IMG/VR virus record: IMGVR_UViG_3300037310_000051
Location: 1-59,443 of that record
Strand: one strand, 5' to 3'
DNA length: 59,443 bases
Origin: a virus
Lineage: Duplodnaviria > Caudoviricetes
Below the pieces are notes generated by a model, which ran no database searches, was not told the DNA's origin, and worked only from the letters and a program-made list of their open reading frames with translations. The translations under genes and the position numbers were made by a program. This document shows positions 1 to 49,688 of this stretch, one piece after another. How positions within the stretch are numbered: position 1 is the first letter of the stretch; the number at the start of each line of letters is the position of its first letter.

Positions 1-392
1 TCAGGGAGGTCGTAGTAGAATTCATGAATGGTGTCGGTGTCGGTGCGATAGCACCGGACGCCCTGATAATACCACCGATCGGTGGATATGTACCCCTGCG
101 GATCATCGAACCCATTGGCACCCACGGCCCATTTCGCCGGAGGCGCACCGCCGTGTGCGGACGACGGAATAATCGCTGCCGTATGATACTCCAGCCCGTC
201 GAACGCGGTATCTTTCCCGAACGAGTAGAGACACATGTAATCATCGGTCGTGACCAGGCCGAGCATGCGCACCGCCCAGGTCGCTGAAAACGGATATGGC
301 AACGGCAGACGGCGCCGGAGCGTATGGCCTTCCAGATCGGACAGCCCGATGGCCTGATGTACAAATGAGGTATGCCCGAATTGAATCGCCAT
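1..392 (-). CDS. 5' part of LamG/concanavalin-like virion protein (allelic copy of 58332-59219), truncated by window edge
   Basis: ATG at 392 (MAIQFGHT...) overlaps the stop of 392-886; same frame as the full copy at the right end. Confidence 0.7.
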   Translation of the reverse strand, partial: MAIQFGHTSFVHQAIGLSDLEGHTLRRRLPLPYPFSATWAVRMLGLVTTDDYMCLYSFGKDTAFDGLEYHTAAIIPSSAHGGAPPAKWAVGANGFDDPQGYISTDRWYYQGVRCYRTDTDTIHEFYYDLP

Positions 393-616
393 CAGGTAAT
401 CGTCTCGTAGACGCCTCGATATTTCACGGCATTGTTCGTGCCGGTCGCATGAAAGGCGGTGCCTGTTGAATTTTTCACGACGATGCCCCACTTCGGGGGC
501 AGTCGTCCACCAAACGCGGTGGCGATACTGAACGGTCCCCATTCCACATCATCGTTATCATCTGATGTATCCACCGCTGCCGTGCCCAGCGGAATCAGAT
601 CGTTATAACCATCGAC
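1..616. repeat. Left copy of terminal direct repeat (circular-genome overlap)
   Basis: Matches 58828-59443. First 127 bp are identical, then about 23 substitutions (manual count) and no indels. Confidence 0.95.
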
Positions 617-886
617 CCCGCCGGTCGTGCCCCAGGTAATCGTGGCATCCGAACCAGTTACGCCAGCCGTATAGCTGGTGCCATCCCATGACCCATAGGC
701 GTAGATTTCGATTTGCCCGTCTGCCGTGACGGCTCCGATTTGCGTGATGCCTCCGACAAACGCATCGAGATAGAGGTTGCTCGTATTGTCCACCGCCGTC
801 GATTCTCGGTATCCGGCAGATCCAAGGCTGGTCAACGTAATTGTGATGCTGGTTGCCGATCCATAGGCCAGTTTTCGATCAGCCAT
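392..886 (-). CDS. Putative virion structural protein (Thr/Ser/Gly-rich, beta-rich)
   Basis: 164 aa ORF with upstream SD (AGGGGG) in the neck/appendage block; C-terminus repeated at 59219-59443. Confidence 0.7.
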   Translation of the reverse strand: MADRKLAYGSATSITITLTSLGSAGYRESTAVDNTSNLYLDAFVGGITQIGAVTADGQIEIYAYGSWDGTSYTAGVTGSDATITWGTTGGVDGYNDLIPLGTAAVDTSDDNDDVEWGPFSIATAFGGRLPPKWGIVVKNSTGTAFHATGTNNAVKYRGVYETIT

Positions 887-20011: not shown

Positions 20012-20040
20012 ACTATAGCCCGATTAGGTCGGAAAGTAAA
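20012..20040 (-). promoter_or_regulatory. Sigma70-like promoter TTTACT-N17-TATAGT
   Basis: Exact 17-bp spacer; overlaps the TerL 3' end and points into the accessory array. Confidence 0.65.
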
Positions 20041-24960: not shown

Positions 24961-24969
24961 AATCGTTCC

Positions 24970-29794: not shown

Positions 29795-30048
29795 TGCTCC
29801 TCAATCGGCTGCCAGCCCTTATGCTGTAAGCACTCCTGCATTTCAGAACGTGCATTGATGCCGTAGTAGATGTTGTTGAGCGGATCGGCGCGAAACGCGA
29901 TGCCCTGCGAGCTGCGCTCCCACTGTTGCCGACACTCGTAGATATCATACTGTAATTCCGGATTACCTGCACCGTCCTTCGCAAAGCGCACGGGACCGCC
30001 ACAGCCAAAGAGCATTATACAGAGTCCGATGATTGCCAGTATGCGCAT
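29791..30048 (-). CDS. Small lipoprotein
   Basis: MRILAIIGLCIMLFG|C lipobox; D.YEC...CLQ.KGW motif; own SD AAGGAGG. Confidence 0.65.
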   Translation of the reverse strand: MRILAIIGLCIMLFGCGGPVRFAKDGAGNPELQYDIYECRQQWERSSQGIAFRADPLNNIYYGINARSEMQECLQHKGWQPIEEQ

Positions 30049-30050
30049 GA

Positions 30051-30878: not shown

Positions 30879-30898
30879 GATCCTCTTCCTCCCGTGGG

Positions 30899-31894: not shown

Positions 31895-32106
31895 TTCGTG
31901 TATCTCCCCCGCCCGTTTCGATACCGCCAGTGCGTGGTACGCTTTGCAATGCAGGCTCCGCAGGTGGTTCCGTTCACGGGGATGTTGGTGCATCCCGCCA
32001 CGCGACACGTTACCGCCGTTGCGATGGTGTCACGATAGCCGCAATTTAGGCAATGCACGTCGCCGTAGTTATCGACGATGAGCCCCTGACAGCGCACACA
32101 CGTCAT
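31891..32106 (-). CDS. Small zinc-ribbon protein (MxCxRCxG...CLNCG)
   Basis: ATGA-coupled; related motif to 1616-1816. Confidence 0.55.
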   Translation of the reverse strand: MTCVRCQGLIVDNYGDVHCLNCGYRDTIATAVTCRVAGCTNIPVNGTTCGACIAKRTTHWRYRNGRGRYTK

Positions 32107-32489
32107 GACGGCTCCTTCTTGCGCGGTCTGCCCGTTAGCTCCACAAACACGCCAGGCCGATCCATTGCGTACATGAATTCATCACTCAGGCTGCCGACGT
32201 AGTCGATCGAATCATCCAGTAAGACCCCTTCGGCTACCAACGAGTCCAAAACAAACTTGGCGCCAAATCGGATGTTGTCTGGGTCGCGTTGATTGCGTCC
32301 GGTCTTGGCCTTCTCGTACCACCGGAAGATGATGTGTGCGGAATCCATCGGGCGCAGCTTCGCGCGTCGAATCGCCACGCGCACCAGCATGCCATAGTCA
32401 CGCTTCATGCGACTGTAGACCTGCGGATGAATGCGCAGCACATCGTTTGCGCCTGGCAGCACCGTGTCAATGAAGAAGCTCTGCGTCAT
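32103..32489 (-). CDS. RusA-like Holliday junction resolvase
   Basis: LPGAND, RDPDNI..GAKFVLDSLV..GVL.DD motif; follows the helicase. Confidence 0.8.
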   Translation of the reverse strand: MTQSFFIDTVLPGANDVLRIHPQVYSRMKRDYGMLVRVAIRRAKLRPMDSAHIIFRWYEKAKTGRNQRDPDNIRFGAKFVLDSLVAEGVLLDDSIDYVGSLSDEFMYAMDRPGVFVELTGRPRKKEPS

Positions 32490-34204: not shown

Positions 34205-34962
34205 GTGTAGATAATCCGCTTCTTAGGTGCGGGAGGTGATTGTGGCTCATCGGTCCAGCGACCTTGGTTTAACCATGTTGATGGATGCGGGATATACTGC
34301 CCATTGTCCCTTATCCACTGCTCAGACTGTTTTAATTTTTCAATCACTGCCAGAATCTGCTCGATTGGTGGGCGATCTTTCGCCTTCATCCATGCCTTAT
34401 GTGCGAACTTCTTTCCACCAGACTTTCGTGGGTACGTAGTCCAGAATTGTTCAAACTCAGTATCGTACTGCAAAGTGGGTATGGGGTCATTATTTTCGGT
34501 CGGTGCCAGCGCCGTCATTTGGGGCGCTGGAGAAGTCTTATTCTTATTCTTTATAGGTACGGTATGGTACGGTACGGTACGGAGGGGGTGTTCATCGGCG
34601 CCCTGGTCGGGCGTCAATAGATTATTTTTACGCCCCCGTGTTTTGTTATACTTCAACCAGTTACGTCCGTTTAGAACCAGTGGCGAACCATCCGGCGCTG
34701 ATTCGCCAACCAGTAGCCACTCCTTCGCGACTAGCCAGCGAATCTGTCGCGAACAGTTCGCCACTGATTGACGAGTAGTTCGCGACAGAACCGCCAACCA
34801 TTCTCCAGCCAGTCTCCACTGGTTGTCGGATCGCTCTAAATAGATCAGAATTTGCAGCCATGTTCTTAGGGCTCGATCACCAAACTCAGAGGTAAATTCC
34901 CAGACTTCAGGGTCGGCGATAATTTCCTGTGAGCAGTGGAAATATCGTTTGGGGATTGGCAT
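34201..34962 (-). CDS. Phage replication initiator/organiser protein
   Basis: FEQFW..YPRK..K..A.KAW.K and YIPHP.TWLN..RW.DE C-terminal motif; upstream of the helicase. Confidence 0.75.
   Translation of the reverse strand: MPIPKRYFHCSQEIIADPEVWEFTSEFGDRALRTWLQILIYLERSDNQWRLAGEWLAVLSRTTRQSVANCSRQIRWLVAKEWLLVGESAPDGSPLVLNGRNWLKYNKTRGRKNNLLTPDQGADEHPLRTVPYHTVPIKNKNKTSPAPQMTALAPTENNDPIPTLQYDTEFEQFWTTYPRKSGGKKFAHKAWMKAKDRPPIEQILAVIEKLKQSEQWIRDNGQYIPHPSTWLNQGRWTDEPQSPPAPKKRIIYT
34556..34582. repeat. (GGTAC)5-like pentamer repeat inside the initiator gene; possible origin
   Basis: GGTAC GGTAT GGTAC GGTAC GGTAC GG next to the AT-rich tract TTATTCTTATTCTTTATA. Confidence 0.55.
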
Positions 34963-35342: not shown

Positions 35343-36446
35343 CTACTTTCCGCCAGTCAACTTGATCGCCGCTTCCAACTTATCCAAGTAGAACTCCCAC
35401 TGCTCCTGCGGAAGCACGTCGATCGGCTTCTGTTGGCCGGAGAGCCGCACCTTCATGGCGCCAAGAAGTTTCCCAAACTCTCTTACTCCAGCCTGCGTGC
35501 TTTTCAGTTTCGCCTCAGCCCCACTGATCGCCGTGGCCAGCATGGCGCGATCAGTCTCTACCCGCTGCTCCGGCTGTGGTTCGGTCTGTTGTGAGGCGGG
35601 CGGCTCTTGTGTGGTATCTTCTATAGGCGCTACACTCTCGTTGGTGTCTGTTGTTGGTTGCTCCGTAGGAATCTGCGCTGTCGGTACTGATCGCTCACCT
35701 GCGACCTGTTGCAACGCAGTGGCGACCTGTTTTCCCTTAGTCTCAGGCTGGGACTTCTCGGCGATGATCTCCGTGACGGTCGGGGGCTGGTGTGCGTCAA
35801 GATCTTGTGCCTCTTCGTACAGCGGGAGACCCTTTAGCACATCACCGAAGTTATCCCGAAGATTCCACCCCCTGGCTCGCCACATGAGCATGCGCCCTGG
35901 TGATGTGCACCACGGCGTCTCGAAGTTGTTATAGCCCTTCTTGAGCCAGAGCTTCATGCTCTTGGCATCACCCACACCAAAGAATGTCGTTCTGGCAGCC
36001 ATACCCCGTCGCTTCGAGCGGCAGTAGGCGATGATTTCCTTTCCAGCCTTTTCGGCGGCGAATACGTCTACGGCCTTGTCTTGCCGTACCCCGTCCACTT
36101 CCATCCATTCGTCGAACTCCTCCAGTAGACCAGAGCTGCGAACGAGGGCTAGCCCCGCATCACCGTAGATGCTCGGCGTCCCATTGACCACAGCGATGGA
36201 CTGCAAACTCTGAAGCCACTTAAGGCCGATCTCCGCGCCAAACTGCACCGCCACCATAATGTCGGCGGGTTGACCTTTATAGCCCTTCGGGACGATGTTT
36301 GAGCGCGATACCATATCGCACCAACGCCAGACCTCGTCGAAGTTCTTGAACGACGGCATAAAGCCGCCCGCCTGTGTATTGATCGCCTCAAGCCCGGACG
36401 GTTTCTGTGGCGCCGTGACTGCTGTTGCTGCTTGTGCGTCTGCCAT
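35343..36446 (-). CDS. RecT-like single-strand annealing protein
   Basis: VPKGYKGQPADIMVAVQFGAEIGL..LQSLQSIAVVNG.PS.YGD...PW...P.RML.WRA....LRD.F.DVL.GL; follows YqaJ. Confidence 0.85.
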   Translation of the reverse strand: MADAQAATAVTAPQKPSGLEAINTQAGGFMPSFKNFDEVWRWCDMVSRSNIVPKGYKGQPADIMVAVQFGAEIGLKWLQSLQSIAVVNGTPSIYGDAGLALVRSSGLLEEFDEWMEVDGVRQDKAVDVFAAEKAGKEIIAYCRSKRRGMAARTTFFGVGDAKSMKLWLKKGYNNFETPWCTSPGRMLMWRARGWNLRDNFGDVLKGLPLYEEAQDLDAHQPPTVTEIIAEKSQPETKGKQVATALQQVAGERSVPTAQIPTEQPTTDTNESVAPIEDTTQEPPASQQTEPQPEQRVETDRAMLATAISGAEAKLKSTQAGVREFGKLLGAMKVRLSGQQKPIDVLPQEQWEFYLDKLEAAIKLTGGK

Positions 36447-36484: not shown

Positions 36485-37486
36485 TTACTCCAGTTCAATC
36501 TGTCGCACGCCTGCGGTGATGATCATTTCGTCAAGACGATCTTCCGGCGCAGCTTCGCCGAGATTATCCGTTAATGCCGTCGATCTGAATGTGCGCGTCG
36601 GCGTGTCCCTGGTCAGTGCCGTGGCAATGGCCGGATACTCGCGCTTCAACCGATCGAGGTCCACGGACTTCCGCGCGCCATTCTTCCAGGTGAACTTCGC
36701 CACGCCAGGCAATAGTGCCGTTTCCGCGTCGGCCATCTGCAACTTGATCCAGGTTTCCAGATCAGTGATGCGTGTACCAATCTCCGCTTCTTGGTCGCAG
36801 AGCCGAAGATAGCGCCGGATCTTCGCCTCAGCCTCAGCACCCGCAAAGAGATGTGCTTTGCTCGGCGTCGCCTGTTGGTGCATGCGCTTGATCAGCTTGG
36901 CCCCGGCCTCACCGAAGGCAAAGTCCGGTGGATTGCCAGTCCGAACGCGCTCCCAGAAATCGATTTCTAACGGGAGGAGCATCGCGATCGTTGTCTCGTC
37001 CCGCTCGACATCAAAGGCGTGAAACTCGTTCCCACCAAACAGGACACCGAACGTCCCGAACGTGCAACCCGTTACCAAGAGGTAGTGTTGGAGCTGTAAA
37101 TAATAGGCCTCCGGGACGCCACCCTCCAGCCACAGCTTGCGCTGCAGCCAGTTGGCGTTCTTGCCTTCGTACACGCCCCGAATCCCATCGCGCTCTTGCC
37201 AGCGGTCGATATTGGCGAGTAGAAACTTGTGCTCAGAATGGCGCAGCGTGCGCCGCTGGCGCCAGATCTTGCGACCTGTGCGAAAAGCAAACTCGTCGGC
37301 GATGGGCTTCTCCAGTCGCCTGCCGAAGCGCAGGATTTCCGAATCCTGATCATCACCGACAATCTCGCCGCGCTTTTCCAGATAGAGCTGGTAGGCGGTT
37401 TTATACTTACTGAGCCCGCAGAGGGCGGCCACGTCGGAGCCGCCGATCCCTTTGGAGCGCTTGATTGTGCCGGGAGGTGTGCTCAT
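36485..37486 (-). CDS. YqaJ-like viral exonuclease
   Basis: GIGGSD, TAYQLYLEK, G..LE, LANIDR, YEGK, VP..Y..QLQHYL.VTG. Confidence 0.92.
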   Translation of the reverse strand: MSTPPGTIKRSKGIGGSDVAALCGLSKYKTAYQLYLEKRGEIVGDDQDSEILRFGRRLEKPIADEFAFRTGRKIWRQRRTLRHSEHKFLLANIDRWQERDGIRGVYEGKNANWLQRKLWLEGGVPEAYYLQLQHYLLVTGCTFGTFGVLFGGNEFHAFDVERDETTIAMLLPLEIDFWERVRTGNPPDFAFGEAGAKLIKRMHQQATPSKAHLFAGAEAEAKIRRYLRLCDQEAEIGTRITDLETWIKLQMADAETALLPGVAKFTWKNGARKSVDLDRLKREYPAIATALTRDTPTRTFRSTALTDNLGEAAPEDRLDEMIITAGVRQIELE

Positions 37487-38346: not shown

Positions 38347-39288
38347 CTACTCCTCCGTCAGGTCAATTGCACGCAGTGGGCGATCGATCAATGCGGCATC
38401 GAGCGTGCTGGTGATGTTCGCAAAGTCGGTGGCCAGCTCAGCCCGCAGCGTATCGCTATCGCGAATAGTGTCAGGATGAATGCCGGTGATCAGCTGCCGT
38501 GCGCGTTCGACCGTTTCCACCAGCGTCTGATCATCGGTTAGGTTGCGTGACTTGAACAGCTCTAGCCAGGTGGTCAGGTTCGTCACCGTCGTGTCGCGAA
38601 ACACTTTGGGCTTGCCGTTCTCACCTGGCTGAAGTTTCTCGGCAACGTGCGCCGTGAGCTTGCGGAACTCCTGCAAGAGCACCGTGGTGACTTGGTGGCT
38701 AGCCTCGCCCCACATGTTCTGCAGCTTGGTCAGTTCGCGTTGATACAGCTCACGGTTGATGGCCTGCAACTGTCCCGGCGCCGAGAGTTCCCACATCTGA
38801 AACTCGAACGTGAATGCCTCCCGCACCAAGTCTATTGACGGGTAATCATTCTCGTCATAGCCCGCGCCGAGCTTGATCTGCGCCTCCTGCTTGCGCTGTG
38901 CGTACATCTCGATGAACCGATCGATCAACGGCCCACGGTCGCGCCGTGAGGCTTCAACCTCTTCGGCCACTTCCTGGATTAGCCTAACGGGCAGGATCAA
39001 GATACCCTTGCCCTTGAACGGCGACGGGAGGCACCGCGCCCGCACCCACGTTTTAATGGCGGTGTCGTGCTCGGCGATTGCCTTGAGTTCTGGCGATTCC
39101 AGAATGTCCTTCGACACATGGAGCAACTGCGGATCGATCTCCGTCTCCACCAGGGAGCCGTTCTCCTCCTGACCCTTCTTCGTGATCTTGCTTCCGGCGA
39201 TCTTGCGCCTAGTGCGCAGGCGCCCCATCGACAGATACAACATGACTGAGTCGTTTTGAATTCTCTGTGTGGGCATAATGTTTGGCAT
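38347..39288 (-). CDS. DUF3150-like protein associated with AAA/DUF1257 modules
   Basis: SK.IL, LPSP..G...LP, LG..YD..DYP, GKPKVFRD..V.NL...F...NL.DD..L; start MPNIMP after SD AAAGGAG. Confidence 0.6.
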   Translation of the reverse strand: MPNIMPTQRIQNDSVMLYLSMGRLRTRRKIAGSKITKKGQEENGSLVETEIDPQLLHVSKDILESPELKAIAEHDTAIKTWVRARCLPSPFKGKGILILPVRLIQEVAEEVEASRRDRGPLIDRFIEMYAQRKQEAQIKLGAGYDENDYPSIDLVREAFTFEFQMWELSAPGQLQAINRELYQRELTKLQNMWGEASHQVTTVLLQEFRKLTAHVAEKLQPGENGKPKVFRDTTVTNLTTWLELFKSRNLTDDQTLVETVERARQLITGIHPDTIRDSDTLRAELATDFANITSTLDAALIDRPLRAIDLTEE

Positions 39289-39308: not shown

Positions 39309-39548
39309 TTACAGCACGTGCTGGTTTAGCCACTCGACCTCTGCATCGAGGGCTGCTTGTCTCATCTCGTACGGCCCGAGCACCGGCCCGTTGATCGGCG
39401 AAAGATCCGCCGTCCACCGTCCATCGGCAGTCGGTTCAACGTGGCTGACCCGCTTGATCTCCACTCGCCCATCTTGCAGGAGACCACGTAGGTCGTCGCA
39501 GTAGATTAGCTTGATCGTCCCGTTAGGTTCAACGACGATGGTTGACAT
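39309..39548 (-). CDS. Conserved small protein of the AAA/DUF1257 module
   Basis: R.SHVEPT.DG.WTADLSP..GPVLGPY..R..AL.AEV.WL motif. Confidence 0.7.
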   Translation of the reverse strand: MSTIVVEPNGTIKLIYCDDLRGLLQDGRVEIKRVSHVEPTADGRWTADLSPINGPVLGPYEMRQAALDAEVEWLNQHVL

Positions 39549-39708: not shown

Positions 39709-39857
39709 GGCTCCTCCTGTTGGTGATAGCGAATAGGTATCACGGCGTCACACGCGCCGCAGGCGCGATACGTGACGCCCCAGAGATTGAATTGCACAGT
39801 GCGATGGCCGCATGCACGACAGCGCCCCTCCATATGGACGCCCGTTGCGCCGATCAT
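39681..39857 (-). CDS. Small zinc-ribbon protein (58 aa, not in ORF track)
   Basis: ATGA-coupled to the DUF1257 gene; CRACG...CGAC. Confidence 0.45.
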   Translation of the reverse strand: MIGATGVHMEGRCRACGHRTVQFNLWGVTYRACGACDAVIPIRYHQQEEPCRTQLPSS

Positions 39858-40333
39858 CGCTGCGTCACGATGGCTACGGAGCCATCCGTCCGCACGGTTT
39901 TCTTCACCACGCGAAAGCCCGCCCGTTTGGCCGCCCGCACGGCCACTTCAACGGCATACGCCTGTCTGAATTTCTCCAGGTTATCGCCTGCCAGCCTCTT
40001 CAGCTCGTCGGCGCCGGACAGGTCGCAGAGCAGTTGATAACCCGGCTTGCCGTCGCGTCGCCGCGCCACGCCGATCTCGTATTCGCTAACGTGGGCGCCC
40101 TTGACGCTAATGGCATGCTCACACTGGCCCATCTCCTCCAACTCCCACCCCTCAGGCATGAGGCGCTTACCGCTGGAGCGTTGATAGGATTCGAGTCGAT
40201 ACAGATCTTTTCCCGTGCCCCAGCAACGGTAGGTGGATTTGTTCTCATTGAACACAAGGCCCAGCTCGACGCACGCGGCGCGCAGGGCCTCAAGATCCTT
40301 TAGTTCAATCTCGATCGTAGCCACGTGGCTCAT
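39854..40333 (-). CDS. DUF1257 (Ycf35-like) protein
   Basis: MSH...I...KDL.AL..AC.ELG...YEIGV...Y.L..D...QAYA...A...GF. Confidence 0.8.
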   Translation of the reverse strand: MSHVATIEIELKDLEALRAACVELGLVFNENKSTYRCWGTGKDLYRLESYQRSSGKRLMPEGWELEEMGQCEHAISVKGAHVSEYEIGVARRRDGKPGYQLLCDLSGADELKRLAGDNLEKFRQAYAVEVAVRAAKRAGFRVVKKTVRTDGSVAIVTQR

Positions 40334-40359
40334 AATGTCCTCCTAGTTGGTAGCGGTTA

Positions 40360-40387
40360 GCATAGCCGAGTCAGACAACAGAGTAAA
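40360..40387 (-). promoter_or_regulatory. Sigma70-like promoter TTTACT-N17-TATGCT
   Basis: Exact 17-bp spacer, intergenic, upstream of the DUF1257 gene; boundaries +/-1. Confidence 0.6.
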
Positions 40388-40403
40388 GTACTATTTTGCT
40401 TAC

Positions 40404-41912
40404 TTACAAGCCGCCAATGGTGCGCCCCGTCGCGATCTCCTGCGAGGGACTTTGATATAGCCCTTCGTGGCTGGCCGACAAGAAGGCATTATGGGCCAGC
40501 TTGCGCAGCCGCTCGATGCTGTGCGGATCACTCTTGGCGACCGGTGTAATATAGGTTGCCGCCTTCTTCAGGCCGATCTTCAACCGATACGCCAGTGCAC
40601 ATGTATTTCTAATGTCGGCGCCCGTCCAATCACGATCGTCGGGCTGCGTGTCCGTCTCCTTGATGCTGTACTTTTTGCGCATGATCTTCCAGATGCTCGC
40701 CCGCTCATCTTCGCACGGCAGGTCGAAAAATCGAATGCCGTCCGTAAACCGTCGGCGCAGCTCCGGCGGGAGACTCTCCATGCGGTTGCAGGTGGCGATC
40801 CAGTAGGCGCCCTTACCCGCCACCGCCCGAATTACTTTCAGCGCGGCACGAATCTGCTGCTCCGATTGCCCGACCAGCGACCCTTTCATCGCGCCCAGAT
40901 CCAGGGCGATGCACGGCACGTCATGCTCGGCGGCCAGAGCTTGCGCGAAAAGTGACTTGGCCGTTCCGGGAGGGCCAGGAAGGATCATACCTGGCCACTT
41001 ATTCGCCTGCATCTCCTGGAGTAGCTGTCCCAGCTGATCCTGACTGGTCCCACTGGAATCACCGACCGACCCACTGCTCCCCGCCATGGCCTTTTCGATC
41101 TCGTCCACCCACACGATCGCCGAGGGCGGCTCGTTTCCGGCGAAGAGCAGACGTCCGAACTCCTTGATCGACTCTAGTCCGCCGATGTCGGCGAACGTCT
41201 CCCCGCCGGTCTGCACGCGCAAGCCCTTGGTTTGCTCGACCATCTTCCGCTTATGTTCCCACAACTGATCAGTATCGATGCCCTGTTTCGTAAGCGATAG
41301 GGCGATCGCCTGTTCTGCAGCAAACGCCGAAAGTCCGCGCGCCGCCTTAACGGTCTTGTCGCGCATGGTCTTGGGAAACTTCGTCGTCGTGCCGATGAGG
41401 GCATACAGATCATCGGCGATCTTGCCCAGGGCGGCATCGTCAGGTAACGGTTCATCGAACACCAGTACGTCGCGCTCCAGTTCGGCGGGCAACTGCATCG
41501 CCGCGCCGAGCAGAATCAACGTGCGCCCAGTACCTTTGAACGGATCGCGCAGATTCCAGACGGCTTGCGTCACGGATTCCTGTCGATAAAACAGGTGCGC
41601 GTTGAGCATAAACACGACGGCCTTCTGTGGGAGCTTCAGACAGAAGGCGAGCATCTCCGTGGCGTTGATCGTGGCATCCACCAAGGCGGCGCCATTCATG
41701 TTGAGTTGTCCGATCGCCTGCTCAGCCTCTTTGTTCAGGTATCGCATGCCGCCGACGATGTCCCAGGCAAAGAACGGCGGCGTGACTCCGTTGGTCATCG
41801 CCGACACGCTCAGCTGCATGGTCGCAGCCATATCGGGCGTTTCGATTCCGATTAGGGGCGTGCCAAACTTGCGAGCACGTGAGAGATTGGTCTTCAGTTG
41901 ATCGACGGTCAT
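40404..41912 (-). CDS. Ycf46-like AAA+ ATPase with permuted Walker B/Walker A order
   Basis: TFADIGGL, IVWVDEIEK, GPPGTAKS, GSLVGQSE, IATCN, LPPELRRR, FFDLP, WTGADI; start MTVDQL after SD AGGAGG. Confidence 0.85.
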   Translation of the reverse strand: MTVDQLKTNLSRARKFGTPLIGIETPDMAATMQLSVSAMTNGVTPPFFAWDIVGGMRYLNKEAEQAIGQLNMNGAALVDATINATEMLAFCLKLPQKAVVFMLNAHLFYRQESVTQAVWNLRDPFKGTGRTLILLGAAMQLPAELERDVLVFDEPLPDDAALGKIADDLYALIGTTTKFPKTMRDKTVKAARGLSAFAAEQAIALSLTKQGIDTDQLWEHKRKMVEQTKGLRVQTGGETFADIGGLESIKEFGRLLFAGNEPPSAIVWVDEIEKAMAGSSGSVGDSSGTSQDQLGQLLQEMQANKWPGMILPGPPGTAKSLFAQALAAEHDVPCIALDLGAMKGSLVGQSEQQIRAALKVIRAVAGKGAYWIATCNRMESLPPELRRRFTDGIRFFDLPCEDERASIWKIMRKKYSIKETDTQPDDRDWTGADIRNTCALAYRLKIGLKKAATYITPVAKSDPHSIERLRKLAHNAFLSASHEGLYQSPSQEIATGRTIGGL

Positions 41913-41931
41913 GATAGGCCCTCCTGTTGGG

Positions 41932-42207
41932 TTATGGATAACAGTTAAATAGTCGAAAGAATATCGCCTCGGCGGTCGCCAGGGCGCGCTCAACTTCGTC
42001 GCTCATCATGGTTAAGAGATGCTGGGGCGAGATACGTTTTTCGTCAACGAAAATCTCCTCTCGGTATACGCCTCGATTCCCATCGGCATCCGCGCCGTAG
42101 CTCTTGTCGATCTCGATGTGGTACTCCAGCTCGACCGGTACCGAGCGTCCGGTTGGCTCGCCGTCGATGGTTTCGATATCAATAAGTAGCACGACAGATT
42201 GGCTCAT
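41932..42207 (-). CDS. Hypothetical protein
   Basis: 91 aa, SD GGAGG; YGADADGNRG motif. Confidence 0.6.
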   Translation of the reverse strand: MSQSVVLLIDIETIDGEPTGRSVPVELEYHIEIDKSYGADADGNRGVYREEIFVDEKRISPQHLLTMMSDEVERALATAEAIFFRLFNCYP

Positions 42208-42222
42208 GATACCTCCATTTAG

Positions 42223-42996
42223 TTAGGCGTTCTGCTCATCGCGGATAACCTTGGGCGCCTCGTTGGCCAGGATATTTGCCAGCTCTTCGGCGGTGCAGCG
42301 CTGCGTCGTGGTGCGATGCACCTGATATTCACCCTCGCCTACGTTGACAATCAGCAGCCTCACGTTGTCCGTTTCAATTTCACCGCTCAAGCCGTATATT
42401 GTATTCGACACATAGGGCTTCAGAATTGCGTTCAATTCAGCATTCCGTCGCGTATGTGATGCATGTCTCTCTTGGCGCAGATTATAGATCTCCGTTTGCT
42501 CATTGACGAACGCAATGATCTTGTTCCAGGAGTACGTACCGTCTTTCTTCTGCGGAAACAGACGGGAGTCGATTCGCGAGATTACTTCCAAGGATGTGCC
42601 TACTAATTCCCCCCTCACTCCCCTTGAATAGCGGCGCATCATTCTAAGTGACGCACCGACATCGGTCTTGATCCGGCAGTCGCCGTACTGATCGGCGATA
42701 GGCTCAGCATGCCATTCGTCCGGCAGATGGTCGACAATCTGCTGCAATGAGGCCAGTGTCTTTGCTCTTGCAATCTCCGCCTCCGCATTGCGGTGAACAG
42801 TATTTTCATACTGTGCTAGCATGCGAGACCGATCATTCGACGCACGCTCGATGCCAGACTTAATACCGTCGGCTGCCAGCACTGCCCAGTTCTCATCTTT
42901 GCCGAGATGCTTCTCCAGTTCACTCGCCAATTCAATCAAGGCTGTCGACTGCCCGATCAATACGTTTTCGATTTCGCCATATCGTGTGCTGGTCAT
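42223..42996 (-). CDS. Hypothetical protein
   Basis: 257 aa, SD AGGAGG. Confidence 0.65.
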   Translation of the reverse strand: MTSTRYGEIENVLIGQSTALIELASELEKHLGKDENWAVLAADGIKSGIERASNDRSRMLAQYENTVHRNAEAEIARAKTLASLQQIVDHLPDEWHAEPIADQYGDCRIKTDVGASLRMMRRYSRGVRGELVGTSLEVISRIDSRLFPQKKDGTYSWNKIIAFVNEQTEIYNLRQERHASHTRRNAELNAILKPYVSNTIYGLSGEIETDNVRLLIVNVGEGEYQVHRTTTQRCTAEELANILANEAPKVIRDEQNA

Positions 42997-43057: not shown

Positions 43058-43432
43058 TTATGCAACGCTGTCGTCGGCTGCTATCTCCGCGCAGATCTCC
43101 TCGCAATGCTCCATCACCCATTCGGCGGCCTCCTGCCGGATCTCCTCAAAATCTACCGTGGGCTGGCCGTCCTCATCGGTCGGCCATGGGTGTTTCGGGT
43201 CGAGACAGTGATGCTCACTGGTGGTCCGGCCCCAGCAGTCAAATATGATCTCGCTCGTATAGGGCTGCCAGGAGATAGAGGCATCGCCAGTTGCCGCTCG
43301 TGCGAGCTCATTGAATCTCTCAATCAGCGCGTCGCCTAGCTGTTTGGCCTCTCGATCCGTCACGTCTCCCCAATTGCTGTAGGTGCAGACCTGGCAAAAT
43401 GCGCAGCCTGGATGCATGGATGTGGTAGTCAT
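43058..43432 (-). CDS. Acidic hypothetical protein
   Basis: Start MTTTSM after SD GGGAGG. Confidence 0.6.
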   Translation of the reverse strand: MTTTSMHPGCAFCQVCTYSNWGDVTDREAKQLGDALIERFNELARAATGDASISWQPYTSEIIFDCWGRTTSEHHCLDPKHPWPTDEDGQPTVDFEEIRQEAAEWVMEHCEEICAEIAADDSVA

Positions 43433-43547
43433 GATGTTCCCTCCCTGTGTGCGGCAGTGCCGCGTGAATGTTAGCTGAGCCCCACTTCTGTTGTTTGGTT
43501 GCCTTCCATGAATCCGCCCTGTAAGAGGCTCGGATCGAGCAAGGCAC

Positions 43548-43739
43548 CTAACGGGCGTAGTTCTGAAAGCTGGCATCCGTAATAATCCAGCGTGTTCCAG
43601 TTAAGCAGTCTTTGCCCTTCTTGCCGACATAGATCGCATCGGCGCATTCCGTTGCCGTTGGATAGGTAAGGGAGCAGATCGCGGAGAGCCCGTTCAGGAT
43701 GCCGGAAGTGAATTTCTTGGTGAAGTAAATCGCGGTCAT
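43548..43739 (-). CDS. Hypothetical protein (first gene after the early promoter)
   Basis: Start MTAIYF after SD GGAGG. Confidence 0.6.
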
Positions 43740-46493: not shown

Positions 46494-48041
46494 TCACCAG
46501 ATAAAGCCGCGATAGTACAGATCGCTTCCCGGCCCGCCGTCAACCATCAGCGCACTATGATTCACCAACAATTCATCGAATGCACTGTAGAGTAGTTCGG
46601 CTGTGTACGCCACCGTCAACGTTAACGCCGCGTTCGACATGCCCGTTGAATCAAGATCGATTGCTGTAATCGGTCCAAGGACGGCATAATCCACCGCAGA
46701 GCCAGTCCCAGTCAGGCCTAGGATAATGGCACATAGATCAAGTGGTGGAATGCTTGCTCGCAGATCCAGAAGCGTCGTAGCCCCAGATAATTCATTGATG
46801 AGCAATCCATCGGTAGCTATTAAATCCAGCGTCCACAGGTGGTCTAACTGGGAAAACCTCACCAGATTGCTGCTCCCATTGTTGTAGGCCCAGCCGATGT
46901 GCGCATAGCGATAGCCGCTCGGCACGGTGGTCGAAAAGTCCACGTCGTTTTCCGTCACGTACACCCGCAGCCAGAGGTCGTCATCCGTGTCCGCCGTCCA
47001 GGTGCCGGTATCGGAATCGTACAACGCCTTGCTCCCGTTGGCGTAGGTCGCTGCCGATCCATCCATGCGCCAGCTGACATAATTCGTCGCGCTCACCGCC
47101 CAGTCGCCCTGTGCCACGATATGGTATTGCGTCGCCGCTGAAATTGACGCGGGCGTCGGGAATGGCACGCGCACTTGCGTCGCTGTGGTGGTCAGTCTCG
47201 ACACGTCCAGTTTTACACTTGTGGCGACCGGCGTATTATTCGGCACCCCACCGCTGTTGCCCTCGATGGTGAACCAGAGATAGCCGGTCGGCGTGCCCGT
47301 CTTGAGCAGCTTCACGTCGATAAACGGGACTGGCCCAGCGGTGCCCAACTGAAACCCTTGCGAGACTTTCACGGTCGAGTTATCGACCGCACTGCGAATC
47401 CCCTGGCTCGCATCCTCGCCCGCCGTAATGTCCTCATCGAGCAGAAAATCCTTCGCCCGATGAAAGCAGCCCCACTTCGTCGTGCCGTTGTAGATCGCAT
47501 AGATGGGGTACCAGGTCGAGGCTTGCTCCGTGCCGGTATCGAGCCCCCCCGCACCGGAGGCGGCCAGATTGACGACGATGTTGTCCCAGTCGGAGACCTC
47601 TTCCCCGTCTGACATGACGATCGCATCGGCTGAAAAGACCACGCGACTCGGCGCCAGATCGGCATCGTGATGCGTCTGTACGCGCAGACCACGGAAGGTC
47701 TGTGAGAGGGCATTGGAAAAGATCGAGTCCCACATGGCCTTCGTGATACCGAGCAACATCTTGTATGTTTTACCGCCAGTATTCTTGGTTGACGCGCCCG
47801 TGCTCTCGGCGTTCCGTGTAACGGTGAGCGTGTCTCCGCTGCGATTCGTCACTGTCACGATTTCTCGGTTGGGATCATCCGCGGGATCGGGGTAATCTGT
47901 GAAGTTCCACCAGGTGAGCGGATAGGGAAATGTGGACGGCAATCGCGAGCCGTGGCCGGTCGTCAACACAATGCTCGTCGCCGAGGCGTCATAGCCTGTT
48001 GAGACGGTCACTTTGCCAAAATTGGTGACTGGTGTACTCAT
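46494..48041 (-). CDS. Tail fibre/receptor-binding-like protein
   Basis: N-terminal EIV.VT.RSGDTLTV.R..E motif and GAGGLDTG.EQASTWY motif of phage tail proteins. Confidence 0.7.
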   Translation of the reverse strand: MSTPVTNFGKVTVSTGYDASATSIVLTTGHGSRLPSTFPYPLTWWNFTDYPDPADDPNREIVTVTNRSGDTLTVTRNAESTGASTKNTGGKTYKMLLGITKAMWDSIFSNALSQTFRGLRVQTHHDADLAPSRVVFSADAIVMSDGEEVSDWDNIVVNLAASGAGGLDTGTEQASTWYPIYAIYNGTTKWGCFHRAKDFLLDEDITAGEDASQGIRSAVDNSTVKVSQGFQLGTAGPVPFIDVKLLKTGTPTGYLWFTIEGNSGGVPNNTPVATSVKLDVSRLTTTATQVRVPFPTPASISAATQYHIVAQGDWAVSATNYVSWRMDGSAATYANGSKALYDSDTGTWTADTDDDLWLRVYVTENDVDFSTTVPSGYRYAHIGWAYNNGSSNLVRFSQLDHLWTLDLIATDGLLINELSGATTLLDLRASIPPLDLCAIILGLTGTGSAVDYAVLGPITAIDLDSTGMSNAALTLTVAYTAELLYSAFDELLVNHSALMVDGGPGSDLYYRGFIW

Positions 48042-48050
48042 TGTTAGTCC

Positions 48051-49688
48051 TCAGTATTGAATAGAAACAGAGCCATCTTGACCTGGCGATCCGTTCTGAT
48101 TGCCGGTATGTGTAGCAGGCGCCCCCGCACCGCCTGTTTTACCTCCACCGACCACAACGGCGCCGTTACTTCCACCACCTGGCGTGCCAACAGAGCCAAA
48201 GAATGTTCCGCCACCCCCGCCACCATTTGCCGTGGATAGATTGACGCCACCGCGATCGACCGTTGAGGCGGTGCCCGCCGTGCCCGTTCCAGTAGTGCCA
48301 ACCCCCTTAGCACCGACTACGATGTCAAGTGTATCGCCAATTGCAACGGTAACAGAGGATGTGGTCTTACCACTATTCCCCCCGCGTTTGCCTGCTAAAT
48401 CACCACCGGACAAGGATGCTCCGCCCCCGCCACTCCCACCCATCGTCACGATCGTAACAACGCCCGCAATGGGCGAGATCCATTGATGACTGCCCGTAGA
48501 GGTAAACGTCGCCGTGGAAAGGCCGGTCGTGCCCGGTAACTGCACCGAGATTTTTCCACTGTCCACAATATCCAGCCATGAATCGTAGGCGCGCCGCCGT
48601 AAGCTGCTCGGCATTAACTCTAGATCGTAGATAAGCCCGCGCCCGTCTTCGTCTCGCGTATTTACTCGGTGCAGAATCCACTCGCCTGCGATGCCAAGCA
48701 ACGCTATCTGCATCGAGGCGACTTGTCCTGCACGAAAGCCATAGCCGCGCACGCGACACTGCAAGAGCATGCGCGGCGTACCTGCCGTGGTAAGCTTGGC
48801 TTGGCCATAGCTGGAGGCGAGCAATTGCAATACGGCAACGTCGTTACTCGTTGGATGTATGATTTCGGCGTAATCTTCATACCGCCCATCCGTGCCGTCA
48901 ATCGCCGCACGTTCGGCGATCTGCTCAGTGCTCTCCTCAACGTGCAGCAATATCACCGGATCATCGCCTTCCATGATCGGGGTGCCCGTCACTTTGACGT
49001 GCTGCACGTTTCGATAATCGTCAAGATCCTCGGTATATGAGGCGGTTTCTACGGTTGCATCCGTGAGATCTTTCGGCGCCGTCCCGCTGGATGTGGCAAC
49101 ATACGAAATGCTTCTGTCATGACCAATGGAGAGGAGTTGCCCTACGGCAGCCCCCGCATCGCGTAGCACGTCATAGGCGCTTCCGCCCCGTGAATCGACC
49201 AGTGGCAGTGAGGCGTACTGCTCAATGGTGCCGATCTGAAAACCACAGCCCGTTAATTCATTGTCGATAAGTGAATCAATAAGATAGAGAAGATCAATGT
49301 TGGAAAAATTCCTCTGAATCTTATGGCGCGCCAGAATGTGCGAGGCGTCCTGGCAGGTACACTCGATATATTGCGCGGTGGCGGTATTATTGATCGAGTG
49401 ACGGAGGCCGGTGAGGATGCCCACGAAAAGAACTTCGTCATAATAGGTAATGCGCACGGATGAGCCTACCGACGGAATTGTAGCTTCGTTTACCAGGGTG
49501 AACTCGCACGTGGCCGAATCGCCGATGACATTGTCGATCGACAGGCTATTGACGAGCACCGCCGTCGAGACCACGCCGTCCAGCATAACGCGAATTGGTT
49601 GCGAGGCAAAGGCATCTACCGTCGCCGTTGAGAGCGGCGAGAGTGACGCCAGCGCGGAGTTGGCGATTGCTGATCCGGCAAACATCAT
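48051..49688 (-). CDS. Tail tip/hub protein with Gly-rich C-terminal domain
   Basis: Follows the tape measure gene; hub-like N-terminus; GGSGGGG...GAKG...G.DG.V.I.Y tail. Confidence 0.7.
   Translation of the reverse strand: MMFAGSAIANSALASLSPLSTATVDAFASQPIRVMLDGVVSTAVLVNSLSIDNVIGDSATCEFTLVNEATIPSVGSSVRITYYDEVLFVGILTGLRHSINNTATAQYIECTCQDASHILARHKIQRNFSNIDLLYLIDSLIDNELTGCGFQIGTIEQYASLPLVDSRGGSAYDVLRDAGAAVGQLLSIGHDRSISYVATSSGTAPKDLTDATVETASYTEDLDDYRNVQHVKVTGTPIMEGDDPVILLHVEESTEQIAERAAIDGTDGRYEDYAEIIHPTSNDVAVLQLLASSYGQAKLTTAGTPRMLLQCRVRGYGFRAGQVASMQIALLGIAGEWILHRVNTRDEDGRGLIYDLELMPSSLRRRAYDSWLDIVDSGKISVQLPGTTGLSTATFTSTGSHQWISPIAGVVTIVTMGGSGGGGASLSGGDLAGKRGGNSGKTTSSVTVAIGDTLDIVVGAKGVGTTGTGTAGTASTVDRGGVNLSTANGGGGGGTFFGSVGTPGGGSNGAVVVGGGKTGGAGAPATHTGNQNGSPGQDGSVSIQY

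What the first reader, a model, noticed from the sequence alone, without database searches (positions are those of the whole stretch)
40404..41912. AAA+ ATPase with Walker B encoded before Walker A (internal segment swap)
Seen: the order is TFADIGGL, then IVWVDEIEK plus GDSSGTS helix (about 41030-41125), then GPPGTAKS (about 40953-40976), LD...GSLVGQSE, sensor-1 IATCN and LPPELRRR. Established: classical AAA+ domains, including Ycf46, run Walker A, beta2/pore loop, Walker B, sensor 1. Here the beta3-alpha3 unit has moved ahead of beta1 while every catalytic motif is kept and the frame is intact. This is a topological rewiring, not a simple circular permutation.
Basis: partly seen in the sequence, partly recalled or inferred. 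Interest (0 to 1): 0.8.

Follow-up and report, generated by a model that had tools for sequence, protein, structure and literature searches.

The report
AAA+ ATPase with swapped core blocks
A phage gene encodes an AAA+ ATPase in which the chain segment carrying the Walker B motif has moved ahead of the segment carrying the Walker A motif, a rewiring conserved across a large phage protein family and apparently not described before.

Summary
Window 40404-41912 (minus strand) encodes a 502-aa protein with the order GGL/alpha0, then IVWVDEIEK plus GDSSGTS (Walker B, beta3-alpha3), then GPPGTAKS (Walker A, beta1-alpha1-beta2-alpha2), then sensor-1 ATCN and RRR.

It is not a misassembly. All 270 aligned homologues and all 160 fetched loci keep the order, and an independent metagenome contig covers the gene without gaps.

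An HMM of 114 canonical-order phage relatives hits the protein in four pieces. The Walker B block (hmm 353-393) lies before the Walker A block (hmm 294-351), with clean breakpoints.

AlphaFold gives a confident p97-like D1-D2 model (pLDDT 92). Residue coevolution places the moved strand between beta4 and beta2, as in normal AAA+ domains.

On a 121-sequence tree the permuted proteins form one group (SH-aLRT 100) set apart from all canonical ones.

Catalytic residues are invariant (E271, K319, N376 and R388 in 270 of 270).

The gene sits in a phage genome. A DUF3150-like gene follows it in about 93% of loci, and a DUF1257 gene is often present too.

The target and function are unknown; activity and hexamer formation are inferred. 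Five literature searches found no description.

The parts
40404..41912 (-). Whole gene: 502-aa two-domain AAA ATPase (P0001), stop codon included
   Evidence: ORF and translation. Pfam AAA PF00004 at 60.1 bits against a cut-off of 21.2, in 3 stretches. Full-length homologues.
41223..41912 (-). Residues 1-230: degenerate D1-like alpha/beta domain plus helical lid, with no P-loop (IETPD follows the first strand)
   Evidence: The AF2 model aligns to p97/Cdc48 D1-D2: 7lmz_C Z 18.6, 406 aligned, model 2..499 against chain 208..775. It is homologous to the N-domain of canonical phage relatives: hmm 52-272 matches residues 41-252, E 4e-14.
41127..41207 (-). Residues 236-262: FADIGGL motif and helix alpha0, which now leads into beta3 instead of beta1
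   Evidence: Helix H247-258. G245 is G in 270 of 270.
40995..41126 (-). Residues 263-306: block B, the relocated beta3 (IVWVDE Walker B), the GDSSGTS loop (pore-loop-2 position) and alpha3 (LLQEMQ)
   Evidence: hmm 353-393 of the canonical profile matches residues 265-306, E 9.7e-8. E271 is E in 270 of 270; D270 is D in 254 and E in 16. Strand E265-269 has block pLDDT 96. It is coupled to beta4 and beta2.
40815..40994 (-). Residues 307-366: block A, made of beta1, the P-loop GPPGTAKS, alpha1, beta2, the pore-loop-1 region KGSLVG and alpha2
   Evidence: hmm 294-351 matches residues 308-365, E 6e-18. K319 and G316 are each invariant in 270 of 270.
40407..40814 (-). Residues 367-502: block C, made of beta4 with sensor-1 N376, arginine fingers R387/R388, beta5, the helical lid and a conserved C-terminal tail
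   Evidence: hmm 395-441 matches residues 369-414. N376 and R388 are each invariant in 270 of 270; R387 in 268 of 270.
39854..40333 (-). Downstream gene, 159 aa, DUF1257 (Ycf35-type)
   Evidence: Pfam PF06868 E 1.3e-8, 35.4 bits against a cut-off of 22.2. Found near the ATPase in 33 of 80 viral loci by BLASTP and in 30 of 80 by tblastn.
39309..39548 (-). 79-aa ORF between the DUF1257 gene and the partner gene
   Evidence: Present in 25 of 80 viral loci, always downstream on the same strand. No Pfam, PHROG or NCBIfam match.
38347..39288 (-). Conserved partner gene, 313 aa, DUF3150-like, mostly long helices
   Evidence: Found in 76 of 80 viral loci by BLASTP. Among loci with at least 3 kb of flank, tblastn finds it in 71 of 76 viral and 58 of 61 genome loci. 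Atlas lead: PF11348 in 12-18% of the members of the nearest clusters. AF2 pLDDT 91.3. No PDB fold match beyond generic helical bundles.

Best explanation
This is a genuine phage-encoded member of the classical AAA clade (the SpoVK/Ycf46/Vps4/Cdc48 kind). It has a p97-like two-tier layout: a degenerate, nucleotide-site-free D1 followed by a catalytic D2. In D2 two adjacent chain blocks have changed places. Block B (beta3 with Walker B, the pore-loop-2 GDxSG loop and alpha3) now precedes block A (beta1, P-loop, alpha1, beta2, pore loop 1 and alpha2). The three-dimensional fold is kept, with sheet order beta5-beta1-beta4-beta3-beta2; only three connections are rewired. Alpha0 now leads to beta3, alpha3 to beta1, and alpha2 to beta4. 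Each new connection reaches a strand one or two places from the old target in the sheet. The swap arose once inside a phage family whose other branches keep the normal order. The most economical route is a tandem duplication of the A-B segment (A-B-A-B) followed by loss of the first A and the last B. The protein most likely still binds and hydrolyses ATP as a ring-forming remodeller or unfoldase. It most likely works together with, or on, the DUF3150-like protein encoded just downstream, during the early/replication phase of infection. Shown: the order, its conservation, its homology to canonical blocks, its single grouping on the tree and the gene linkage. Inferred: the preserved 3D fold (from the model and coevolution), ATPase activity, ring formation, the duplication-deletion route and the partner relationship.
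For: Order and homology. BLASTP against the canonical relative from Rhizobium phage L338C (P0122) gives E 6e-27. The reciprocal gaps fall exactly at the Walker B-alpha3 segment. The canonical profile hits P0001, and also the Tunturi_3 protein, in four pieces in the order N, B, A, C with abutting breakpoints.

Conservation. In 270 aligned family members E271, K319, G316, N376 and R388 are each invariant in 270 of 270. D270 is D in 254 and E in 16. In 160 of 160 loci the best tblastn HSP spans residues 262-390 collinearly. Of 570 sequences with both blocks detected, 398 are B-A and 172 are A-B, and none carries extra copies.

Not an artefact. A 25,634-base contig from another study covers 39800-42236 with 50 substitutions and 0 gaps. 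Of the 32 changed codons listed inside the gene, 27 are synonymous.

Fold. The AF2 model has pLDDT 92.1 and pTM 0.84, with five strands in D2. p97 D2 (3cf0_A) aligns with Z 16.4, rmsd 2.4 and 203 residues aligned over model 229..477. That leaves about 46 residues unaligned, the size of block B. In mean-field DCA (Meff 221) the moved strand couples to beta4 (5 pairs in the top 200, best rank 7) and to beta2 (3 pairs). It has 0 pairs with beta1 and 0 with beta5. The unmoved pairs beta1-beta4 and beta1-beta5 are recovered with 3 pairs each. In random half-samples beta4 was the best partner in 12 of 12 and beta2 the second best in 11 of 12.

Single origin. In a tree of 121 sequences (79 permuted, 42 canonical) the permuted ones form one side of a branch with SH-aLRT 100, and the tree needs 1 change of state.

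Module. The partner gene is conserved. It is also present downstream of canonical-order relatives such as L207, L212, L215, L185 and L198.

Inteins sit in the P-loop (P0134) or after sensor 1 (P0165) of some members, as expected for functionally critical sites.
Against: The sheet order is therefore not read from the model, and the structural aligners used are sequence-order dependent.

The DCA positive control on the canonical family (161 sequences, Meff 76) did not recover the known sheet order. Beta1-beta3 had 3 top-200 pairs and beta3-beta4 only 1. The method is noisy at low depth, and the permuted-family result rests on its internal controls and resampling.

Coevolution and AlphaFold use the same signal, so they are not fully independent, and neither separates intra-chain from inter-chain contacts.

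There are no biochemical data on ATP hydrolysis or oligomeric state.

The pore-loop-1 position is Leu in 211 of 270 members rather than aromatic, so substrate threading may differ from p97.

Tree sampling came from the top hits of two queries, and the tree was a quick search with SH-aLRT only.

No duplication intermediates were found, so the route is conjecture.
Confidence: 0.85

Rival explanations
1. Assembly or gene-calling artefact: a chimeric contig or a local rearrangement in this one metagenome assembly produced the odd order.
For: The window is a metagenome-derived virus record.
Against: 270 of 270 homologues from independent assemblies and sources share the order, including a cultured isolate, Tunturiibacter phage Tunturi_3 gp103. 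So do 160 of 160 loci. A contig from a different study spans the gene with no gaps or joints at the block borders.
Confidence: 0.01
2. The upstream DEIEK segment is a relic, a linker or part of D1 and does not act as Walker B. The domain would be a pseudo-ATPase, or would use another acidic residue.
For: Pfam, NCBIfam and PDB sequence profiles align only residues of about 297-390 and skip the segment. D1 of this protein is itself degenerate.
Against: E271 is invariant in 270 of 270, and D270 is D or E in 270 of 270. E273, K274, D285 and G288 are also near-invariant. The segment is homologous to the canonical Walker B-alpha3 block, including the GDxSG and L..M motifs. No acidic motif exists between alpha2 and sensor 1. 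The strand coevolves with beta4 and beta2, and residue 273 couples with P-loop residue 315. The D2 structural match starts at residue 229-232.
Confidence: 0.05
3. Segment-swapped oligomer: with the new connectivity, beta3-alpha3 inserts into the neighbouring protomer's sheet, so Walker B acts in trans around the ring.
For: Coevolution cannot tell intra-chain from inter-chain contacts. Block B now hangs on a short linker after alpha0, at the N-terminal edge of D2.
Against: The AF2 monomer model packs the strand with pLDDT about 96 and overall pTM 0.84. Alpha3 runs straight into beta1 with a median 3-residue gap between the blocks, which ties block B closely to its own P-loop strand.
Confidence: 0.04
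4. Independent (convergent) origin of the B-A order in several lineages, or recombination between two different AAA genes, rather than one duplication-deletion event.
For: No A-B-A-B or B-A-B intermediates were seen among the 570 sequences in which both blocks were detected, so the route is unproven.
Against: The permuted sequences form one side of a branch with SH-aLRT 100 and need 1 change on the tree. The breakpoints are the same in the window protein and in the 37%-identical Tunturi_3 protein. Both blocks score against the profile of the same canonical family.
Confidence: 0.05

Closest known systems
Canonical-order phage two-domain AAA ATPases (e.g. Rhizobium phage vB_RleS_L338C gp050, AHC30467.1, 'AAA+ family ATPase'; JGI label 'SpoVK/Ycf46/Vps4 family')
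   Same: It has a homologous N-terminal degenerate domain and the same GGL/alpha0. The Walker A, LVGQSE, DE(I/V)(E/D)K, GDSG(V/T)S, (A/S)xN and RR motifs are the same. It is phage-borne. More distant canonical branches also carry the DUF3150-like gene downstream, and L338C has a weak DUF1257-like neighbour (E 7e-5).
   Different: Blocks A and B are in the normal order there. A roughly 20-residue alpha0-to-beta1 linker (hmm 273-293) has no counterpart in the permuted proteins. No DUF3150-like gene lies within 5 kb in L338C itself.
p97/VCP/Cdc48, Rix7/NVL and Afg2/Drg1 (type II classical AAA unfoldases)
   Same: The two stacked AAA-like tiers match structurally. Foldseek gives E about 1e-13. VIA gives Z 18.6 over model 2..499, and the D2 match is Z 16.4, rmsd 2.4, 25% identity. 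They share classical-clade motifs and paired arginine fingers.
   Different: There is no N-domain. D1 has no nucleotide site. Pore loop 1 is Leu rather than aromatic in most members. The D2 chain order is B-A instead of A-B.
Circularly permuted GTPases (YlqF/YjeQ type; recalled from general knowledge, not from any call)
   Same: They are another P-loop NTPase group in which the motif order along the chain is changed while the fold and catalysis are kept.
   Different: That case is a true circular permutation of the whole domain, with new termini. Here the domain termini are unchanged and two internal blocks are transposed.
Non-circular permutation of the HK97 fold in Bordetella phage BPP-1 capsid protein (PMC3863775; seen only as a listing and abstract)
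   Same: It is a phage protein with a conserved fold and a non-circularly permuted chain order.
   Different: It is a structural protein, not an enzyme, and no catalytic motifs are reordered.

Membership tests
Classical AAA ATPase domain (Pfam PF00004) | Profile match above the curated threshold | tested here: met
   60.1 bits against a cut-off of 21.2. The match is split into 3 stretches, the best being residues 309-363 on profile positions 1-55.
Classical AAA ATPase domain (Pfam PF00004) | Walker A GxxGxGK[ST] after beta1 | tested here: met
   GPPGTAKS at 313-320. K319 and G316 are each invariant in 270 of 270.
Classical AAA ATPase domain (Pfam PF00004) | Walker B hhhhDE present | tested here: met
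   IVWVDE at 266-271. E271 is invariant in 270 of 270; D270 is D in 254 and E in 16.
Classical AAA ATPase domain (Pfam PF00004) | Chain order Walker A, pore loop 1, Walker B, sensor 1 (beta1-alpha1-beta2-alpha2-beta3-alpha3-beta4) | tested here: not met
   The order is Walker B, Walker A, pore loop 1, sensor 1. The canonical profile hits out of order (hmm 353-393 before hmm 294-351).
Classical AAA ATPase domain (Pfam PF00004) | Sensor-1 polar residue at the end of beta4, and second region of homology with arginine fingers | tested here: met
   N376 is invariant in 270 of 270, R387 in 268 of 270 and R388 in 270 of 270.
Classical AAA ATPase domain (Pfam PF00004) | Five-stranded parallel sheet in spatial order 5-1-4-3-2, plus a helical lid | tested here: inconclusive
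   The AF2 model has five strands, and a p97 D2 match of Z 16.4, rmsd 2.4. DCA gives the adjacency 5-1-4-3*-2. However, coordinates were not readable and the canonical-family DCA control was uninformative.
Classical AAA ATPase domain (Pfam PF00004) | ATP hydrolysis and hexameric ring | not testable with these tools
   No biochemical assay was possible. Oligomer prediction was not run, because the single complex job went to the partner question.
Phage L338C-type two-domain AAA family (canonical relatives) | Shared degenerate N-terminal domain | tested here: met
   hmm 52-272 matches residues 41-252, E 4e-14. The BLASTP alignment starts at residue 125.
Phage L338C-type two-domain AAA family (canonical relatives) | Collinear full-length alignment | tested here: not met
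   There are four out-of-order pieces. On the tree the permuted proteins sit on the far side of a branch with SH-aLRT 100.
Type II AAA (p97/Cdc48-like D1-D2) | Two stacked AAA-fold tiers | tested here: met
   VIA: 7lmz_C Z 18.6, 406 residues aligned, model 2..499 against chain 208..775.
Type II AAA (p97/Cdc48-like D1-D2) | Nucleotide-binding motifs in D1; curated CDC48 family score | tested here: not met
   D1 has IETPD where a P-loop would be. TIGR01243 scores 31 bits against a cut-off of 802.65.
Circular permutant of an AAA domain | Old termini joined, with new termini inside the domain | tested here: not met
   Alpha0 stays N-terminal, and beta4, beta5 and the lid stay C-terminal. Only the two internal blocks are exchanged.
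Anti-phage ATPase IetA/IteA (PADLOC, NCBIfam NF042959) | Score above the family cut-off | tested here: not met
   NF042959 scores 35.3 bits against a cut-off of 510, over residues 297-356 only. The PADLOC IetA hit (E 3.8e-10) covers the same P-loop stretch. This is generic AAA similarity.

The most novel reading that the evidence does not exclude
The ASCE/AAA+ catalytic core, usually treated as topologically fixed, has undergone a natural, single-origin, non-circular block transposition that then spread through a large phage lineage with all catalytic residues intact. Helix alpha3 occupies the position of the inter-subunit signalling motif of classical AAA proteins (that equivalence is recalled, not tested). 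It now runs directly into the P-loop strand instead of the sensor-1 strand, so the rewiring may also have changed how nucleotide state is passed around the ring. If so, this family is a natural experiment in AAA+ folding and allostery, and part of an uncharacterised AAA/DUF1257/DUF3150 phage module.
Probability: 0.3. Interest if true: 0.85.

Novelty: new variant of a known kind. Interest (0 to 1): 0.72.

Why it matters
P-loop NTPase cores are textbook examples of conserved chain topology, and the permutations usually cited are circular ones in GTPases. A conserved, catalytically intact AAA+ domain with Walker B ahead of Walker A shows that the core tolerates an internal block swap. It also gives a matched natural pair (canonical and permuted branches of one phage family) for studying folding pathways, allosteric wiring and evolution by duplication and deletion.

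There is a practical consequence. Standard profiles see only the Walker A block: CDC48 TIGR01243 scores 31 bits here, against 127 bits for the canonical relative. Such proteins are therefore under-annotated and could be mistaken for truncated or degenerate ATPases.

A cultured phage-host pair encodes a member (Tunturi_3 on Tunturiibacter psychrotolerans), so the system can be tested. The tight linkage to a DUF3150-like gene and a DUF1257 (Ycf35-type) gene also offers a handle on two families of unknown function.

Tried and rejected

(2) Complex prediction of the ATPase with the DUF3150-like partner gave no verdict (score 0.00 against a mark of 0.32; controls were not run). It is not evidence either way.

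(3) The partner's fold gave no lead. Foldseek against the PDB found nothing at E <= 0.001. VIA wide found only generic helical-bundle matches, best Z 9.8, over residues 172-303. Pfam, PHROGs, NCBIfam and PADLOC gave no hit for it.

(4) The DCA control on canonical relatives (Meff 76) did not recover the known strand order.

(5) The junction-only homologue search (residues 258-330) was limited by the word index: 47 hits among 255 candidates. All 47 cover at least 92% of the junction, but the number is not a family count.

(6) No RNA holder was listed among the sequencing runs, so nothing can be said about expression.

(7) Five literature searches found no description of an AAA+ domain with Walker B before Walker A. 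They were: 'AAA+/Walker B/permutation/Walker A' (12 papers, none relevant by title or abstract; one checked by passages); 'Ycf46 + phage' (4 papers, none relevant); 'permuted AAA' (0 papers); non-circular permutation terms (25 papers, none on AAA+); and six phrasings of 'Walker B precedes...' (0 papers). Subscription-only papers are not covered.

(8) The main text of the Tunturi phage paper has 0 occurrences of 'ATPase' or 'AAA' (PMC11924767, passages only). Its supplementary annotation table could not be opened and may name gp103 or gp96.

(9) The searches for DUF3150 (1 paper) and DUF1257 (5 papers) gave no functional information. One passage does equate DUF1257 with plastid ycf35 (PMC13060386).

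(10) Model coordinates are not exposed in the script box, so no topology-independent superposition or contact read-out was possible.
Full report
**1. The observation**

The ORF at window 40404-41912 (minus strand) starts at an ATG with an AGGAGG six bases upstream and encodes 502 residues.
- FADIGGL at 240-246
- IVWVDEIEK at 266-274
- GDSSGTS at 284-290
- GPPGTAKS at 313-320
- LDLGAMKGSLVGQSE at 337-351
- ATCN at 373-376
- PPELRRRF at 382-389

Converted to window coordinates, the Walker A octapeptide is at 40953-40976, exactly as stated, and the Walker B/GDSSGTS stretch is at 41043-41117. Pfam recognises an AAA domain (60.1 bits) but in three stretches, the best covering only residues 309-363. 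PDB sequence matches to VCP-like and Cdc48 proteins likewise cover residues of about 298-390 and 360-441 and skip the DEIEK region.

**2. It is a family trait, not an artefact**

A word-indexed search returned 2423 proteins at E <= 1e-3 among 7999 scored. The best 120 are about 500 aa long and 46-82% identical over nearly the full length.

An exhaustive search of 1.84 billion 50%-identity representatives gave 6978 hits at E <= 1e-3, 3483 at <= 1e-10 and 1165 at <= 1e-30. The best 150 all score 370 bits or more. I could inspect only those 150.

I aligned 270 sequences with MAFFT: the window protein and its 119 listed relatives, the Tunturi_3 protein, and the 149 of the 150 representatives that were new (P0082 was already's list). 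The canonical P0122 was left out. All 270 align collinearly with the window protein:

| Position | Residue counts (of 270) |
|---|---|
| E271 | 270 E |
| D270 | 254 D, 16 E |
| K319 | 270 K |
| G316 | 270 G |
| N376 | 270 N |
| R387 | 268 R |
| R388 | 270 R |

In 160 of 160 the best tblastn HSP spans query residues 262-390 in one collinear piece.

The window itself is a 59,443-base IMG/VR virus record that CheckV rates 91% complete. Three freshwater metagenome runs from three studies hold the gene. One of them, not the probable source, has a 25,634-base contig covering 39800-42236 with 50 substitutions and no gaps or joints. Of the 32 changed codons the tool listed inside the gene, 27 are synonymous (8 further differences in the stretch were not listed).

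**3. What exactly moved**

Among deposited phage genomes, 12 records match. Tunturiibacter phage Tunturi_3 gp103 is 37% identical over the full length and has the same permuted order. The Rhizobium phage vB_RleS_L338C ATPase (P0122) has the ordinary order.

BLASTP of the two gives E 6e-27, in an alignment with two reciprocal gaps. P0122 has nothing opposite query residues AIVWVDEIEK...SQDQ. The query has nothing opposite P0122's PCVVMLDEVDK...QETHAP. A local alignment of query residues 260-306 against the whole of P0122 picks that very segment (score 64; shuffles 27.6 +/- 4.2; 0 of 2000 reach it).

I built a profile from 114 canonical-order relatives taken. It hits the window protein in four pieces:

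| Profile positions | Query residues | E-value |
|---|---|---|
| 52-272 | 41-252 | 4e-14 |
| 353-393 | 265-306 | 9.7e-8 |
| 294-351 | 308-365 | 6e-18 |
| 395-441 | 369-414 | 6e-7 |

Tunturi_3 gives the same pattern. The breakpoints abut, so two adjacent blocks have simply been exchanged. Block A is beta1, P-loop, alpha1, beta2, pore loop 1 and alpha2. Block B is beta3 with Walker B, the GDxSG loop and alpha3. The canonical alpha0-to-beta1 linker of about 20 residues (profile 273-293) has no counterpart.

Alpha0 stays N-terminal, and beta4, beta5 and the lid stay C-terminal. This is therefore not a circular permutation of the domain. It is equivalent to a circular permutation of the internal beta1-to-alpha3 segment.

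Of 570 sequences in hand with both blocks detectable, 398 are B-A and 172 are A-B, and none has extra block copies.

**4. Fold**

AlphaFold2 with a 65-sequence alignment gives pLDDT 92.1 and pTM 0.84. D2 shows five strands (265-269, 308-312, 334-337, 369-375, 393-395) and helices at 247-258, 272-280, 289-304, 319-329 and 347-365.

Foldseek and VIA-align place the whole model on p97/Cdc48/Rix7/NVL D1-D2 (E about 1e-13). 7lmz_C aligns with Z 18.6, 406 residues, model 2..499 against chain 208..775. The C-terminal half falls on p97 D2: 3cf0_A, Z 16.4, rmsd 2.4 A, 203 aligned, model 229..477.

The N-terminal half is therefore a D1-like tier. It has no P-loop (IETPD follows its first strand). The roughly 46 model residues left unaligned in D2 match the size of block B, which is what a sequence-order-dependent aligner would leave out.

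Coordinates are not exposed, so I tested the strand placement by residue coevolution instead. I ran mean-field DCA on the 270 sequences (Meff 221), counting pairs among the top 200:

| Strand pair | Top-200 pairs |
|---|---|
| moved strand - beta4 | 5 (best rank 7; 269-371, 267-371, 270-374, 270-375...) |
| moved strand - beta2 | 3 |
| moved strand - beta1 | 0 |
| moved strand - beta5 | 0 |
| beta1 - beta4 (known neighbours) | 3 |
| beta1 - beta5 (known neighbours) | 3 |
| beta1 - beta2 | 0 |
| beta2 - beta4 | 0 |

This gives the order 5-1-4-3-2. In 12 random half-samples, beta4 was the best partner in 12 of 12 and beta2 the second best in 11 of 12. Alpha3 and the GDxSG loop couple to pore loop 1 and alpha2 (292-340, 292-351, 300-358, 304-362), and residue 273 couples to P-loop residue 315.

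Against this, the same method on 161 canonical relatives (Meff 76) did not recover the known order. The evidence therefore rests on internal controls and resampling. It also shares its signal with AlphaFold.

**5. Origin**

I sampled canonical relatives at graded distance and classified them by block order. Blocks N, A, B and C were aligned separately and concatenated.

The IQ-TREE run (LG+G4, quick search, 121 sequences after removing those more than 97% identical, 498 columns) puts all 79 permuted sequences on one side of a branch. That branch has SH-aLRT 100 and length 0.66, and the tree needs one change of state. Shuffled labels need 34.8 changes on average, and 0 of 500 shuffles do as well. 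With midpoint rooting the permuted group is nested among canonical lineages.

This is consistent with a single event in a phage lineage. The duplication-deletion route (A-B-A-B, then loss of the outer A and B) is an inference; no intermediates were seen.

**6. Context and likely function**

Nearly all genes of the window lie on the minus strand. PHROG matches are:
- tape measure at 49685-52378
- tail fibre proteins at 46494-49688
- RecE-like exonuclease at 36485-37486
- RecT-like protein at 35343-36446
- replication initiator at 34201-34962
- primase/helicase at 32489-34204
- large terminase at 20024-21547

The ATPase therefore lies between the tail-fibre genes and the recombination and replication genes.

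Downstream on the same strand lie three genes. The first is a DUF1257 gene (PF06868, E 1.3e-8). One paper passage equates DUF1257 with plastid ycf35 (PMC13060386). The second is a 79-aa ORF. The third is a 313-aa gene at 38347-39288.

The 313-aa gene is found in 76 of 80 viral loci by BLASTP. Among loci with at least 3 kb of downstream flank, tblastn finds it in 71 of 76 viral and 58 of 61 genome loci. All tblastn hits are on the ATPase's strand; 70 of the 73 viral and all 67 genome hits lie downstream of it. Tunturi_3 gp96, annotated as an HNH endonuclease, is a homologue (E 1e-38).

The protein-language atlas puts the 313-aa protein next to viral clusters in which 12-18% of members carry DUF3150 (score 0.97). 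Its model (pLDDT 91.3) is mostly long helices with a small sheet and has no informative PDB match.

Canonical-order relatives such as L207, L212, L215, L185, L188, L194 and L198 carry the same partner gene downstream (hmmsearch E 4e-67 to 2e-7). The ATPase-partner module is therefore older than the permutation.

By analogy with classical AAA proteins, the most likely activity is ATP-driven remodelling or unfolding by a ring, acting with or on the partner. The pore-loop-1 position is Leu in 211 of 270 members, as in the canonical relatives. This inference is untested and the target is unknown.

**7. Distribution**

Genome-contig hits come from MAGs labelled Nitrospirales, Acidobacteriota (Bryobacterales, Terriglobia), Planctomycetota, Armatimonadota, Myxococcales/Deltaproteobacteria, Gemmatimonadetes and others. 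These are presumably prophages or binned phage contigs. One isolate genome (Nitrospira calida) is named.

**8. Novelty**

Five full-text searches found no description of an AAA+ domain with Walker B before Walker A. The library omits most subscription journals. Non-circular permutations are known for other folds, for example the HK97 fold of phage BPP-1 (listing and abstract only).

Standard profiles see only block A. CDC48 TIGR01243 scores 31 bits over residues 307-363 here, against 127 bits over 253-492 in the canonical relative. That may explain why the feature has gone unnoticed.

I rate this a new topological variant of a known kind. It is real with high confidence, its 3D conservation is well supported but not proven, and its function is open.

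Noticed in passing
Family members P0134, P0165, P0185, P0260, P0265 (810-912 aa): Some permuted-family proteins carry large insertions. P0134 has a Hint plus LAGLIDADG intein that splits the match at query residue 318, inside the P-loop. P0165 has an intein-splicing and homing-endonuclease insert after query residue 377, just past sensor 1. Canonical relatives also include intein-bearing members (Pfam PF05203 and PF14890; L197).
   Followed up: partly
window 38347-39288 (-) and locus L001 9687-10646: The conserved DUF3150-like partner of the ATPase has no PDB fold match. Its homologue in Tunturi_3 (gp96) is annotated 'HNH endonuclease', which the helical model and the absence of any HNH profile hit do not support.
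   Followed up: partly
window 39854-40333 (-): A DUF1257 (plastid Ycf35-type) gene lies directly downstream of a Ycf46-like AAA gene in a phage. The canonical phage L338C has a weak DUF1257-like neighbour too (E 7e-5, L002 7190-7405). This hints at a conserved AAA-DUF1257 association.
   Followed up: partly
window 24028-32008 (-): A run of sugar- and amino-modifying genes: a nucleotide-sugar epimerase-like gene (30899-32008), an aminotransferase-like gene (27109-28482) and a beta-glucosyl-HMC-alpha-glucosyltransferase-like gene (24028-24960, E 2e-45). This could be a DNA hypermodification or glycosylation module.
   Followed up: no
P0001 residues 457-502 (window 40407-40543): The C-terminal tail is conserved beyond the AAA lid (P457, L469, R470, A473, A480, G484, Y486 and R497 are invariant or nearly so). 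It has the form ...FLSAS..G.Y... then GR.I near the end, and could be a docking motif.
   Followed up: no
Loci L103, L106, L109, L116: One Acidobacteriota MAG (the same isolate label) carries the permuted ATPase on four different contigs. This suggests several related prophages or phage contigs in one bin.
   Followed up: no
window 41932-42996 and 43058-43576 (-): The three genes upstream of the ATPase (91, 257 and 172 aa) have no Pfam, PHROG or PADLOC match. They are essentially absent from the 160 related loci: 1, 0 and 0 viral loci respectively.
   Followed up: partly
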